A DNA stretch of 64,000 nt from Octopus sinensis (lineage: Eukaryota). Of the stretch, positions 969 through 40,668 are shown piece by piece (position 1 is the stretch's first letter; every line of letters starts with the position of its first letter). A model generated the notes under the pieces. That model was not told the origin of the DNA. It saw nothing but the letters and a program-made list of their open reading frames with translations, and made no database searches. The DNA lies in the NCBI RefSeq assembly GCF_006345805.1, contig NC_042998.1, forward strand, positions 77,934,001 through 77,998,000, given 5' to 3'. Made by a program: the position numbers and the translations under genes.

Positions 969-1311
969 AATGAAAAAAGGGTAATAACATAGATTACTAC
1001 CAGTGGCCCAGCACAAAAGACGAATTAGTCATTAGACAAAATATTATTTATATAGAAATATAATTAAGGGCTCCCAAATAAGGATGCCAAGTGCTAGGGA
1101 CACCAAAAAAAGGGATAAATTCATCGAAAGTGAAGATCAAAAATTTAATTTACCATTAACGATATATCCCGGACTGATCAGTTTCTACCTCTTTCTAGCA
1201 AAACAGACAGAATATGTTTGCTAAGGCCGGTTTCATCAGCGAGACGCTTTTGTTAGTTCGAGATGCACAGAGCGTTAGACCATGTGTTGATCTAAACAAT
1301 TTGTAAATCTT
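969..1311 (-). mobile_element. Small hammerhead-bearing element (Penelope-like pLTR/retrozyme-like) between (TA)n tracts
   Basis: About 340 bp bounded by TA runs (951-968, 1311-1324) and containing a hammerhead core on the minus strand. The boundaries are inferred. Confidence 0.5.
1166..1245 (-). ncRNA. Type I hammerhead ribozyme with extended stem II
   Basis: Minus strand reads gtctcg CTGATGA aacc..tagcaaac..gttttgcta..ggta GAAAC TGATCA GTC cgggat. Stem I gtctcg/cgggat pairs (2 G-U), stem III is the palindrome ACTGATCAGT, and the cleavage triplet is GUC. The first pair of stem II is an A-A mismatch. Confidence 0.7.
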
Positions 1312-1739
1312 ATATATATATATAATGGATATCTCATAAAACTATTCCGCACTTACAATGACAGCCATAAAATCAATCCAACACACCTATCAGCTGCCCC
1401 ACGGATATCACTATGGTTTTGATACCTGAGCTGTACCATTCAATCTAGTGATGTCAACAGCACTAAAATAAGTGCTGTTTAGGAACAAACATACCTTAGA
1501 TATCACGACCTTCATTCAATCTTAATTCTAGGAAGCATTAAATACTAACATTATTAATTAAACTACAAAAATGAAACCACATTTACCCATGTACAAAAAA
1601 AATACCTGTAATTAATAATTGTTTAAGTAAACCTATATCTCCTAAATTATCTTGAAGTCCATACAGATAACATTCCCAACAGTCAGATTTATATATATAT
1701 ATATATTTGTGTGTGTGTGTGTGTGTGTGTGTGTGTACA

Positions 1740-1860
1740 CAGTAATACCTCACTTTGCGATGGCCCAATTTACGAGGCCCCGGGTTTACGAGATTTTACG
1801 AGTTTTAGCTTCTGAGCGTTGTCCGAGAGCAAATTAACTCGTATATCGAGACATTACACT
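1740..1860. mobile_element. Tigger/pogo-like MITE remnant
   Basis: Imperfect TIRs: cagtaatacctcactttgcg ... cgtatatcgagacattac; they resemble the CAGTAAT-CCTCG ends at 36844/37471. Confidence 0.55.
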
Positions 1861-2289
1861 ACCCCCCCCCCCACACACACACATACACACATATACATAT
1901 ATATGGGTATACCTTCCAAATAACAAACTCGGATATTTTTTTCTTTCAGCCTCGCATAAGCTTCTATAAAAGATATTTAAGCGAATTACCGTTTTGTCAA
2001 ATTCATGGTCTTTCAGTGAGACAGGTCATCTGTTACCTTAGTCAATGCGTGTCCTATATGATGCACTTCATTAATGTTTTCCAATGTTATTTATTAATTT
2101 CACTTTAATTTAGTCTCCATTGTATTCCATTCTACTGGATTGTTGTTACTGATATTTCCACTACACTTCTTCCAAAAGCTTTTCTACGTAAAATTGTCTC
2201 AGGGATTGTACTTAACTATATTTTTGAATTGCTTACTATCGATTGCACATATTTGGGAGCTTGTAAGTAGTTTATTATCTTTAACAATG

Positions 2290-3400
2290 CGATCCCAGTA
2301 TTCATTCAGTTGACGGGTTAACTGACATCTGATTGTTCAAAGAAGATTTCAGAAGTATCTAGTGGCGAACTCTCTTGAAAATGGACAAAATTTGCCATTT
2401 CGGTGTTATGAAGTAGCCGAAGAATAACGGGTTAGATCCCAAGGGTATTCATGCTAATATGGTTGCTACATAAAGGGATGCTTTTCAAATGCTTTATCAA
2501 ATGAGCTAAACAGGTAACTGAATTTTGGAAGGGAAGGGAGTGTCTTGAGTTTTACCCAAGTACTGCCGCCACGGTGGAAAACATTGATCGTGTTCACCAT
2601 ATGCTGACTGAAGACAGGTGATTAACTACATATAGCCAACGTTATTAGCGCATCCCGTGAGAGAATTGAAAATATTCTGCACGATGAACTTGGCACGATC
2701 AAGGTTTCTGCTCGATAGCTGCCACGTCTTCTGACATTTGATCGAAAGCGCTCCAAGCTGATCACATCAAGAGAATATCTGATATTGTTTCCTTGAACAT
2801 TTTCATCGCTTTGAGTCAGAGACAAAGAAACAGACCATGCCATGGAAACACCCATCCTCTCCTGCTTCAAAGACGATTATGGTCATTTTATCTGCAGAGA
2901 ATGTGATGGCCTCAGATTTGGAGGATGTAAAAGGCATTCTGTTTATTGAATATCCCCAAAAAGGCCACACCATCAATGGAGAGAACTATGCCAATTTGCG
3001 GAGAAAGTTACGAAAAGATATCAAGGCCAAGCGCTCAGGAAAACTAAAGAAAGGGGTCTTGTTTTATTAGGACAATGCTCCAGCACACAAATCCTTAGTT
3101 TCAATGGCTGCTGTAGTTGATCACCCTTCCTATTCTCTTTATTTGATCCCATCTGATTATCATTCGTTCCCCAACATGAAAAAGGACTTGGTGGAAACCA
3201 GTATCGCTGTGGTCGTGACATCATATCTGCTGTTCATATTTTTTTTACTAACAAGTTGAAAGCTACTAAACCGATAGGATCCATGCGCTGCGACAACGAT
3301 GGAAGACGTGAGTCGACTGCAAGGGGGACTATGTTGAAAAGTAAATCTCATTTGGTCCCAATCCGTGAGAATATTTTGATCAGCCTATTAACTTTTCAGG
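2290..3400 (+). mobile_element. Mariner (irritans/Himar1-like) transposase pseudogene
   Basis: Frame-disrupted peptides follow the Himar1 motif order: MDKICHFGVMK; KVSAR*LPRLLTFD (WVPR motif); SAENVMAS..GILFIEYPQKGHTINGENY..KKGVLFY*DNAPAHKS; HPSYS..PSDY (YSPDL-like); KGDYVEK*. Confidence 0.9.
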
Positions 3401-3479
3401 AGGGACAGGGCATAAATTTTGCGGGTAGCTTGAAATTTATGCGATTTATGTATCATGTTGCATAATATAGGTGCGGTGA

Positions 3480-39134: not shown

Positions 39135-39325
39135 TGTGTGTCTGTGTTTGTTCCCCCAACATCACTTGACAATAGATGCTGTAACCTAGCGGCTCGGCAA
39201 AAGAAACCGATACACTAAGTACCAAGCTTACAAAGAATAAGTCTTGGAGGTCTATTTCCTCGTCTAAAGGTGGTGCTCCAGCATAGCCGCAGTCAAATGA
39301 CTGAAACAAGTAAAAGAGTAAAGAG
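39135..39325 (+). mobile_element. SINE family A, 3' half
   Basis: gtgtctgtgtttgttccccc..tagcggctcggcaaaaga..gactgaaacaagtaaaagag. Confidence 0.9.
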
Positions 39326-39679
39326 CAAAGAGTTAGAAATCGACAGAGTGGGGAAAGAAATAGCAAAGCAGAGATAGTGCAAATTATGAGAGGGTGATTG
39401 AGAAGGAAAGAGTAAACGGTAACAGACTGAGAGGAAGGAAGAGAAAGAGAATATGCAAGTATAGATAACACGACTGTTAAAGGAAGTTTTCCAAACTGAT
39501 GTCTGAACTATACGTTACACATCGTTCTCATATAAAGCTAATAAAACTATTTTATTATCATACTGTTATTTTTATTACAGGGCATCCTAGGTTGATCTCG
39601 TTACTGCTGGCACGTTTTTTTTTTTTGTTCCTTTCTGTTATTTTCGTTGTTCTGTTTTTGCTGTAGGCGTTATTTCTGA

Positions 39680-39980
39680 TGATGTTGTTGCTGCTGCTGC
39701 TACTACTACTACTGCTACTGCTGCTGCTGCTACTGCTGCTGCTGCCGCTGCTACTGCTGCTGTTGCTTTGTAGCTGCTCTGCTCTTCAGAGTGTTTTGTT
39801 GCTAAATTTTTGTCACTACGATTATTGTTGATGTTGTGAGTATATTAATTACTACCATCATCATCATCATCAGTATCCGCAGCAGCAACATCTCTTCTTC
39901 TTCTTCTTCTTCTTCTTCTTCTTCTTCTTCTTCTTCTTCTTCTCTTCTTCTTCTTCTCCTTCTTCTTCTTCTTCTTCTTA
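39680..39980. repeat. (CTG/CTA)n, (CAT)n and (CTT)n trinucleotide arrays
   Basis: Directly visible. Confidence 0.93.
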
Positions 39981-40360
39981 TCTTTCATCTGATTTCCTCC
40001 TCCTTTCTCTCCTCTTCAATTTCTCCCCCCTTCCTTCATTTCCTTCTTCTCTCCTCCTCCTACGCTTTTATCTCCTCCCCCTCATTCTCTCCTCCATTCT
40101 AGAAGTTTCTATTATGCATACCTGAGACGCTCTCATGTCAAGGACTGTGGTCAGTTGCGAAATGGCATTCGTTAATATACGCACACATTTACATACACAC
40201 ATACACGCGTATACATAAACTTATCTATCTATCTATTATATATCTATCCATCCATCCATCTCTCTCTCTTCATATATATATATATATTATATATATATAT
40301 ATATATATATATATATATATGCATAATTGTCACTAAACATGACTTGGCTGTTAGAACACC

Positions 40361-40668
40361 TACATTGCTAAAAATAAAGCTACACAGTTCCAATGCTGTA
40401 GTTAAAAATTGTATACATGTGTATTGACAGGGACTGTAATCACCCGAAAGCACCGTTCAAGTATTCCTTGTTCTGATCGGTCAGCTTCGGCTAATTTCGA
40501 GCGGTCCCTATTGATGAGGCTACGGAGTTAGCCGAAACTTACCGATCAATATAAGGAATTCTCGACCAGTACTTTCGGGAGATTACAGTGCCTGTCAGTA
40601 CATACGTATACAGTAATATGCTTTAACTACAACGTTAGAGCATTTTAGCTCTTATCTCCAGCAATGTA
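40361..40668. repeat. ~308-bp imperfect palindrome with a hammerhead core at its apex
   Basis: The ~140-bp arms align over their length (tacattgct..gactgtaatc.cccgaaag..ttcggctaa versus reverse complement). The apex holds TTGATGA GGCTA cggagt TAGCC GAAAC ttaccg ATC (40511-40547). Confidence 0.9.

What the first reader, a model, noticed from the sequence alone, without database searches (positions are those of the whole stretch)
1166..40547. Diverse small hammerhead-ribozyme elements clustered at TA-type microsatellites (candidate new retroelement system)
Seen: four, possibly five, hammerhead cores in otherwise unrelated sequence (1166-1245 -, 18549-18629 +, 29120-29161 -, 36010-36084 +, 40511-40547 +). 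Most lie in ~300-450-bp blocks next to (TA)n/(TACA)n, and two lie inside inverted repeats. Established: Penelope-like elements and retrozymes carry type I hammerheads with a short palindromic stem III that cleave as dimers, and PLE insertions often include inverted partial LTRs. Unusual here: the two best cores pair the palindromic stem III (ACCTAGGT, ACTGATCAGT) with a long, branched ~40-nt stem II. Inference: a set of non-autonomous, ribozyme-processed retroelements mobilised by PLE machinery with a preference for TA tracts.
Basis: partly seen in the sequence, partly recalled or inferred. Interest (0 to 1): 0.75.

Follow-up and report, generated by a model that had tools for sequence, protein, structure and literature searches.

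The report
Mixed Penelope-type hammerhead ribozyme repeats
Four of the five motifs are copies of four unrelated repeats, one the cut-off end of a Penelope-type jumping gene and three short non-coding repeats likely copied by such genes, each carrying a hammerhead-shaped RNA predicted to cut itself; two have an unusually long arm and one family has a flipped core base pair, but they are not clustered, not a new system, and the fifth motif is only a hairpin.

Summary
Four of five cores are real; 18549-18629 is a single-copy hairpin without a core. The four belong to unrelated dispersed families. A (36.0 kb), B (1.2 kb) and D (40.5 kb) are closed, non-coding 360-460 bp units of retrozyme type. 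C (29.1 kb) is the truncated 3' end of a protein-coding (RT + GIY-YIG) Penelope-like element, so it is not non-autonomous. All show the Penelope signature: partial tandems, inverted arms, two fixed 3' ends, (TA)n next to the 3' end. There is no cluster: 60 evenly spaced 10-kb stretches hold 15 strict hammerheads (1.6 per 64 kb; the window has 1). Stem II of A and B is 42-47 nt and unbranched; such long arms are 6 of the 15 and also occur in a Hydra-like coding element. Family C has a G3-C8 core; Penelope-like elements of this genome use all four Watson-Crick pairs at 3-8. Natural G3-C8 and A3-U8 were not found in my paper searches, but three key papers were unreadable. The scan noted long arms, the swap and two-armed TA insertions before, on other DNA of this genome. 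Cleavage, circles and the mobilising enzyme of A, B and D are untested.

The parts
966..1312 (-). Family B element: 5'-truncated single monomer (unit positions 97-438 of a ~440-458 bp non-coding unit) between TA runs
   Evidence: 96% identical to the family majority sequence
1166..1245 (-). Type I hammerhead B: stem I 1245-1240/1171-1166, core 1239-1233, 47-nt unbranched stem II region, GAA 1185-1183, palindromic stem III 1182-1173, predicted cut after C1172
18563..18602 (.). Single-copy hairpin (14-bp perfect arms 18567-18580/18585-18598); not a hammerhead
28975..29165 (-). Family C: old (75% identical) copy of the 3' end of a coding Penelope-like element
29120..29161 (-). Degenerate hammerhead C (C3/C8 in this copy; G3-C8 in 22 of 25 family copies)
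35866..36261 (+). Family A element: 5'-truncated single monomer (unit positions 17-414 of a ~430 bp non-coding unit), followed by (TA)n
   Evidence: 92% identical to the family majority sequence
36010..36084 (+). Type I hammerhead A: stem I 36010-36016/36078-36084, core 36017-36023, 42-nt unbranched stem II region, GAA 36066-36068, palindromic stem III 36069-36076, predicted cut after A36077
40323..40673 (+). Family D element: head-to-head two-armed insertion (inverted arm 40499-40323, forward arm 40497-40673) of a ~360 bp non-coding unit, between TA runs
40506..40556 (+). Degenerate hammerhead D (U3, damaged stem III); the family form is a short-stem-II type I hammerhead with a 5-bp stem III

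Best explanation
The window holds independent insertions of four unrelated hammerhead-bearing repeat families: C is the truncated 3' end of a coding Penelope-like retrotransposon, and A, B and D are short non-coding units likely copied in trans by Penelope-like reverse transcriptase/endonuclease proteins. Likely working: a read-through transcript of a tandem source copy is bound by the enzyme, which nicks (TA)n DNA and primes cDNA at one of two fixed sites on the RNA (inferred from the two fixed 3' ends, 40-85 nt apart); one or two cDNA arms are joined, giving truncated monomers, partial tandems and head-to-head arms (architecture shown). The template is uncut multimer or re-ligated circle, since copies run through the predicted cut site (shown; circle versus multimer not resolved). 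The hammerheads of A and B are predicted to be off as monomers and to cut slowly when two copies pair through the palindromic stem III, or with protein help. The long stem II is a tolerated, folded extension of a design also used by Hydra-like coding elements in this genome, the likeliest helpers (inferred, no shared sequence found). The window's own copies are single, truncated and most likely inert.
For: Multi-copy and dispersed; 80 exact matches of a joint A/B core motif, control 0; 524 of a C motif, control 0. Closed short units: the 3' end runs directly into unit position 1 in 15 of 30 A loci (my count), 13 of 29 B loci and 4 of 19 D loci; one B locus has two full monomers (L037). No Penelope-like ORF contiguous with the 30 motif-selected A/B loci, and no upstream sequence shared between different loci. 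C: four independent loci share 1.5 kb upstream, ending in a GIY-YIG frame about 1.0-1.1 kb before the core, which matches a 722-aa RT-endonuclease frame in L353. Two fixed ends: B 438 and 354, C about 205 and 148-150, D about 250 and 210-211, A about 428 and 485-499, like the 30-40 bp tail in PMC8557442 and the two start sites in PMC11167929. (TA)4+ within 30 nt of the 3' end in 24 of 29 A, 25 of 28 B, 9 of 24 C and 10 of 18 D copies, against 4-9% of control positions. Stem III: predicted duplex -8.3 to -13.6 kcal/mol against +1.5 to +6.0 for the monomer hairpin in A and B. B's relatives L220 and L221 (z 6.3 and 8.4) keep the core with different but paired stems and different perfect palindromes. 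A Hydra-like coding element ends in a hammerhead with a 54-nt stem II region.
Against: No cleavage or circular RNA was observed. No coding partner was found for A, B or D: no BLAST or alignment similarity to the 3' regions sampled (in one search one of the five slices was mis-set onto coding sequence). Within-family covariation is weak (A: 2 of 25 pairs change on both sides, 275 of 500 shuffles reach that; covariation score reached by 11 of 500). The motifs fold no better than shuffles (z -0.85 to +0.42) and the best fold of B pairs the core with the stem III strand. The C palindrome gives only -0.2 kcal/mol as a duplex. All Rfam scores are below gathering (none for C). Only 1 of 9 Xenopus retrozyme dimers cleaved in vitro (bioRxiv 10.64898/2026.07.22.740005), and cleavage was dispensable for insertion in vitro in PMC11167929. 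C looked non-autonomous in the first 25 loci and proved not to be; D was not given the same motif-selected test.
Confidence: 0.8

Rival explanations
1. All four are truncated pLTR fragments of coding Penelope-like elements; none is a separately propagating non-coding element.
For: True for C and for the long-stem family E. Most Penelope-like insertions are 5'-truncated. D was sampled only by similarity to the window copy.
Against: In A, B and D the 3' end is followed by the 5' start of the same 360-460 bp unit; two full B monomers lie in tandem in L037; 0 of 30 motif-selected A/B loci continue into a contiguous Penelope-like ORF.
Confidence: 0.08
2. A new, clustered retroelement system with its own TA-targeting mechanism.
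For: Four hammerhead elements lie within 40 kb; no helper was identified for A, B or D; the long stem II is missed at Rfam gathering scores.
Against: Density equals the genome background (15 strict hits per 600 kb); the families are unrelated; architecture, tail and (TA)n targeting are those described for Penelope-like elements (PMC8557442); long stem II also occurs in a coding Hydra-like element.
Confidence: 0.04
3. The hammerheads are catalytically silent folds kept as protein-binding or template-recognition structures; the elements move as uncut linear multimers.
For: Swapped 3-8 pairs only partly restore activity in laboratory mutants (PMC11167929); copies run through the cut site; upstream partial copies do not pile up at the cut site; best folds sequester the core.
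Against: The 3-8 pair stays Watson-Crick through A-U/G-C exchange in 23 of 23 matched copies of one lineage, and core, NUH site and palindromic stem III are kept across diverged relatives, as catalysis would require. This rival concerns only the role of the ribozyme and is compatible with the rest of the best explanation.
Confidence: 0.25

Closest known systems
Metazoan non-LTR retrozymes (Cervera and de la Pena 2020, PMC7229834, passages read; Li, Clavereau and Pollet 2026, bioRxiv 10.64898/2026.07.22.740005, parts 1-3 of 5 read)
   Same: Short non-coding units with one type I hammerhead per monomer, tandem and solo copies, proposed Penelope-like helpers; mussel units are 350-390 bp, family lengths 51-972 bp. 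Fits A, B and D.
   Different: A and B have a 42-47 nt stem II region and a fully palindromic 6-10 nt stem III; arrays here are mostly 1-1.6 units with inverted arms in (TA)n, at about 100 copies per family; no homology to a helper pLTR was found; circles not shown.
Hammerheads in pseudo-LTRs of EN+ Penelope-like elements (Cervera and de la Pena 2014, PMC4209133, parts 1-2 of 4 read; Frangieh et al. 2024, PMC11167929, passages)
   Same: Type I motif with small palindromic helix III, extra base after A9, dimer model, partial tandems and inverted copies. C is such an element.
   Different: C has G3-C8 in most copies; the paper's main text reports only U3-A8 as a natural swap and helix II of 7-8 bp. 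Its supplementary alignments were not seen.
Hydra-clade and PLE-X hammerheads (Craig et al. 2021, PMC8557442; passages, section 11, supplement part 2 and supplement searches read)
   Same: (TA)n insertion, longer stem III, an extra base on both sides of stem II, 30-40 bp tail; two spike-moss PLE-X motifs already have 28-35 nt loops in stem II.
   Different: Listed Hydra stem II regions are 3-7 bp with loops of 3-10 nt; here 42-68 nt regions recur in several families, coding and non-coding. Short core motifs of A, B and C had no match in that supplement; the D motif matched once, in an unrelated algal element.
Natural core variants of hammerheads (Perreault et al. 2011, PMC3088659, passages)
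   Same: Covariation of the 3-8 pair in nature (U3-A8).
   Different: G3-C8 and A3-U8 are not named in the passages read; here all four pairs occur in Penelope-like elements of one genome.

Membership tests
Type I hammerhead ribozyme | CUGANGA, GAAA and NUH core | tested here: met
   Window copies A and B complete; C3-G8 in 28 of 30 A and 29 of 30 B rows; D complete in the family majority, damaged in the window copy
Type I hammerhead ribozyme | Canonical C3-G8 core in family C | tested here: not met
   G3-C8 in 22 of 25 and 22 of 30 copies: a compensated variant; window copy C3/C8
Type I hammerhead ribozyme | Core present at 18549-18629 | tested here: not met
   No CUGANGA within one mismatch, no GAAA, no Rfam hammerhead match
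Type I hammerhead ribozyme | Three paired stems around the core | tested here: met
   A: 93% of cells paired over 25 pairs against 22-40% when slid; C stem II 97% paired; covariation within families is weak
Type I hammerhead ribozyme | Rfam gathering score | tested here: not met
   22.2 of 34 bits (B), 22.1 of 52 (A), 21.1 of 48.5 (a D copy), no match for a C copy
Type I hammerhead ribozyme | Site-specific self-cleavage | not testable with these tools
   Needs an in vitro assay
Non-LTR retrozyme (A, B, D) | Short non-coding monomer with one hammerhead | tested here: met
   About 430, 440-458 and 360 bp units; no contiguous Penelope-like ORF
Non-LTR retrozyme (A, B, D) | Head-to-tail repeats with at least two complete hammerhead units | tested here: inconclusive
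   Met by one B locus (L037) and by B's relative L220; the other loci examined are monomers or partial tandems
Non-LTR retrozyme (A, B, D) | Expressed as circular RNA | not testable with these tools
   Only assembled contigs were on offer
Non-LTR retrozyme (A, B, D) | Homology to a Penelope-like pLTR (shown for 24 of 57 Xenopus families with any transposon) | tested here: inconclusive
   None with the coding families sampled; sampling is far from complete
EN+ Penelope-like element (C) | RT plus C-terminal GIY-YIG frame upstream of the hammerhead | tested here: met
   clade looks Nematis-like by eye against supplement rows, no tree built
EN+ Penelope-like element (A, B, D) | Own RT-endonuclease frame | tested here: not met
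Penelope-type insertion (A-D) | Partial tandems, inverted 5'-truncated arm, terminal tail | tested here: met
   Inverted arms in 7 of 30 A, 6 of 29 B, 10 of 25 C, 10 of 19 D loci; two fixed 3' ends
Penelope-type insertion (A-D) | (TA)n target preference | tested here: met
   but in C the (TACA)n tract upstream is part of the element's own 3' UTR

The most novel reading that the evidence does not exclude
Penelope-like elements and their non-coding passengers in this genome use active hammerheads outside the published consensus: a 40-70 nt stem II that makes up a large share of all motifs, and a 3-8 core pair that takes all four Watson-Crick forms, switching between A-U and G-C within one lineage. 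Standard searches would then miss a large part of animal hammerheads, and A, B and D would be circular-RNA passengers of Hydra-type enzymes whose cutting is gated by dimer formation.
Probability: 0.4. Interest if true: 0.6.

Novelty: new variant of a known kind. Interest (0 to 1): 0.4.

Why it matters
What remains is a natural series of hammerhead variants in one genome: long stem II in coding and non-coding elements, and all four 3-8 pairs. If they cleave, descriptor- and Rfam-based counts of animal hammerheads are too low, and the series allows a direct test of an open question: whether Penelope hammerheads need to cut at all, and whether slow, dimer- or protein-gated cutting is selected.

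Tried and rejected
Expression: no RNA holder listed; four runs laid on B gave only contigs, none spanning the stretch, no joints or ends; no conclusion drawn. Naiad origin of A/B, prompted by the 'half core' note for the octopus Naiad: no motif match in the published consensus files (line breaks could hide a match). Linkage of D to the GIY-YIG fragment beside L089: a separate insertion. Helper search by GIY-YIG family and two endonuclease queries: no 3' similarity to A, B or D. First-look candidate numbers (1029-1940) were first read as copy numbers; one search showed A and B to be about 100-copy families. C was first read as a non-autonomous 205-bp unit; overturned this. 'Branched stem II' rejected. 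18.5-kb motif rejected. No Penelope-like protein match in the window or the 10 kb to its left. Pfam found nothing in seven short frames or in the family E endonuclease frame. Three papers that could pre-empt the core-swap or long-stem claims were not held (PMC5785218, PMC5850863, PMC1986816). The cephalopod-retrozyme paper search returned only unrelated papers in its 15 listed rows. Look-ups of earlier findings by sequence for A and B, and by all-words queries, were empty.
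Full report
Setting. The window is G000:C2:77934001-77998000 of a 2.72-Gb animal genome, likely an octopus (inferred from size, recalled repeat content and earlier scan notes). It is AT-rich and full of microsatellites.

Check of the five motifs. B (1245-1166, minus) is a complete type I hammerhead and the only strict descriptor hit in the window; 11 of 100 local dinucleotide shuffles gave any hit and 2 of 100 a hit with palindromic stem III. 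A (36010-36084) has a complete core and one mismatch in stem I. Rfam sees both only below threshold. C (29161-29120, minus) and D (40506-40556) are damaged copies. The 18.5-kb motif has no core within one mismatch and no GAAA on either strand, no hammerhead match and no other copy (one 62-base match elsewhere for the block; none for the motif); it is a strong hairpin. The stem II regions of A (42 nt) and B (47 nt) fold as single interrupted hairpins, not branched ones.

Families. Own-genome searches with each block gave 40 scored candidates for A, B, C and D, of which 30, 30, 25 and 25 came back as loci (B has one duplicate, D six). Alignments restore full hammerheads. A has two subfamilies with different palindromic stems III; B is homogeneous; D has a short stem II and a 5-bp stem III; C has a G3-C8 core in 22 of 25 copies. 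The four units are unrelated (z at most 2.5). A joint A/B core motif has 80 exact matches, 43 A-type and 37 B-type by my count, control 0; as 14 of 30 and 15 of 29 top copies match it, each family has roughly 70-90 near-consensus copies. C is far commoner: 524 exact matches of a 22-base motif and matches in 4 of 60 evenly spaced 10-kb stretches, against no full copy of A, B or D.

Architecture. A, B and D are closed units: the 3' end runs into the unit's own start in 15 of 30 A loci (my count), 13 of 29 B loci and 4 of 19 D loci (its zero for A is an artefact of an extended query). Inverted upstream arms occur in 7 of 30, 6 of 29, 10 of 25 and 10 of 19 loci of A, B, C and D, and 3' ends fall mostly at two fixed sites 40-85 nt apart. 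These are the partial tandems, inverted copies and tail described for Penelope-like elements (PMC8557442, passages), explained by two reverse transcription start sites in PMC11167929 (passages). (TA)4+ lies within 30 nt of the 3' end in 24 of 29 A, 25 of 28 B, 9 of 24 C and 10 of 18 D copies against 4-9% of flank positions (window copies and duplicates left out). In 30 motif-selected A/B loci no Penelope-like frame is contiguous with the element (three loci have separate matches in the flank) and no upstream sequence is shared between different loci.

C is not non-autonomous. Of 30 loci chosen by the motif just upstream of the C hammerhead, four (L330, L332, L342, L349) share the whole 1.5-kb upstream flank, which holds the end of a GIY-YIG frame about 1.0-1.1 kb before the core. 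The same protein end closes a 722-aa RT-endonuclease frame in L353. The (TACA)n tract upstream of the hammerhead is inside this 3' UTR, so part of the microsatellite association is cargo, not target. G3-C8 holds in 22 of those 30 loci, with 6 unmatched and 2 mismatched. The window copy is an old member (70-75% identical).

No cluster. Sixty evenly spaced stretches (599,900 bases) gave 19 descriptor hits against a mean of 1.3 in 10 shuffles; with a stem III filter chosen after seeing the list, 15 against 0.3. That is 1.6 per 64 kb; the window has 1 by the same descriptor. The window also has fewer (TA)4+ runs than the sample (76 against 106 per 64 kb).

What is unusual. (1) Long stem II: 6 of the 15 hits, from five loci, have a stem II region over 30 nt (31-68 nt). 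Two are distant relatives of B that keep the core with different paired stems and different perfect palindromes. A further family (E, 54-nt region) is the 3' UTR of a coding element with variable 5' truncation whose protein shows Hydra features by eye (DKT, LYRDD, C-terminal CxxC and CxH; no tree). Precedent exists: two spike-moss PLE-X hammerheads with 28-35 nt loops in File S2 of PMC8557442. (2) The 3-8 pair: in one Neptune-type lineage (RT, cysteine linker, GIY-YIG) it is A-U in 17 and G-C in 6 of 23 matched copies, never mismatched among them, with 7 of 30 loci unmatched by the pattern, one of which reads A3/C8 by eye. Other families have U-A or C-G. U3-A8 is published (PMC3088659 passages; PMC4209133). 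G3-C8 is known as a partly active laboratory mutant (PMC3884650 passages). I found no natural G3-C8 or A3-U8 in searches, and no animal long-stem-II report among the listings of searches, but PMC5785218, PMC5850863 and PMC1986816 were not held and the supplement of PMC4209133 was not seen.

Mechanism. Shown: sequence, families, architecture, TA adjacency, coding partner of C. Inferred: mobilisation of A, B and D by Penelope-like proteins (Hydra-like by design similarity only; no shared sequence with the coding families sampled); dimer-gated cleavage (duplex -8.3 to -13.6 kcal/mol against +1.5 to +6.0 for the monomer hairpin in A and B; D can fold alone at -2.8; C duplex only -0.2); uncut or re-ligated template (copies run through the predicted cut site). 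Against function: weak within-family covariation, no folding excess over shuffles, 1 of 9 Xenopus dimers cleaving. The window copies are single truncated or damaged units and are most likely inert.

Comparison. A, B and D work like non-LTR retrozymes (PMC7229834 passages; bioRxiv 10.64898/2026.07.22.740005 parts 1-3 of 5; its supplements are closed) and meet the features testable here, except that full dimers are rare. C is a Penelope-like element proper. Other papers seen in passages only: PMC6765202, PMC6155905, PMC10085705.

Earlier scan notes. Searches list notes on other DNA of this genome that describe two-armed TA insertions, long-armed Hydra hammerheads and the swapped core. I had the architecture, the 3-8 series and the Hydra-like family before reading the matching notes; the note that swapped-core repeats are cut-down ends of coding elements led, which changed my reading of C.

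Verdict. Observation partly confirmed; interpretation partly supported. A known kind of element with two variant features worth a bench test. Interest 0.4.

Noticed in passing
L115-L144 (Neptune-type element 3' UTRs): The hammerhead 3-8 pair switches between A-U (17) and G-C (6) within one coding lineage; site 17 is mostly A, avoiding a rival pair with position 3.
   Followed up: partly
L157, L166, L170-L172, L199: A young Neptune-type family (many copies with equal score, 780-781 aa frames) with a U3-A8 hammerhead and a long repetitive 3' UTR.
   Followed up: partly
L191:4897-5101 (-), L261-L287: Family E: Hydra-like coding element with an asparagine-rich linker and a 54-nt stem II region; a second Hydra-like family is very abundant.
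   Followed up: partly
L220 (-), about 1330-2230 on the reverse strand: Two hammerheads 497 bp apart with a 68-nt stem II region and a 12-nt palindromic stem III, in TA runs; a relative of B and a good test substrate.
   Followed up: partly
Family C 5' ends (L067-L087): 12 of 25 copies align from unit position 1-2, about 20 nt before the core, and only two of these continue upstream, where the next 24 nt look like a branch point, pyrimidine tract and AG: a possible splice acceptor, start site or preferred stop.
   Followed up: no
Families B and D: The best predicted fold pairs the CUGAU of the core with the 3' strand of stem III, a possible built-in off state of the monomer.
   Followed up: no
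D, L207, L220, L221, L229: A similar short motif (GCU..UAUUUCUA) lies downstream of the hammerhead in several otherwise weakly related units; seen by eye, not tested against chance.
   Followed up: no
L350-L351: Tandem array of 2.5-3.2 kb units holding the motif upstream of the C hammerhead but no intact core or long frame.
   Followed up: partly
window 54788-55794 (-), 55723-57657 (+), 31332-31712 (-), 34968-35318 (+): Broken frames that resemble LINE reverse transcriptase/endonuclease and Tc1/mariner transposase (labels recalled; Pfam gave no hit).
   Followed up: no
window 36290-36480 and many other places: Copies of an abundant SINE-like repeat recalled from octopus genomes, often beside TA runs.
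   Followed up: no
PMC8557442 supplement, record before Naiad_Ovul: Its 3' end has GAAAC before CUGAUGA with complementary flanks, like the scrambled hammerheads of earlier scan notes.
   Followed up: no
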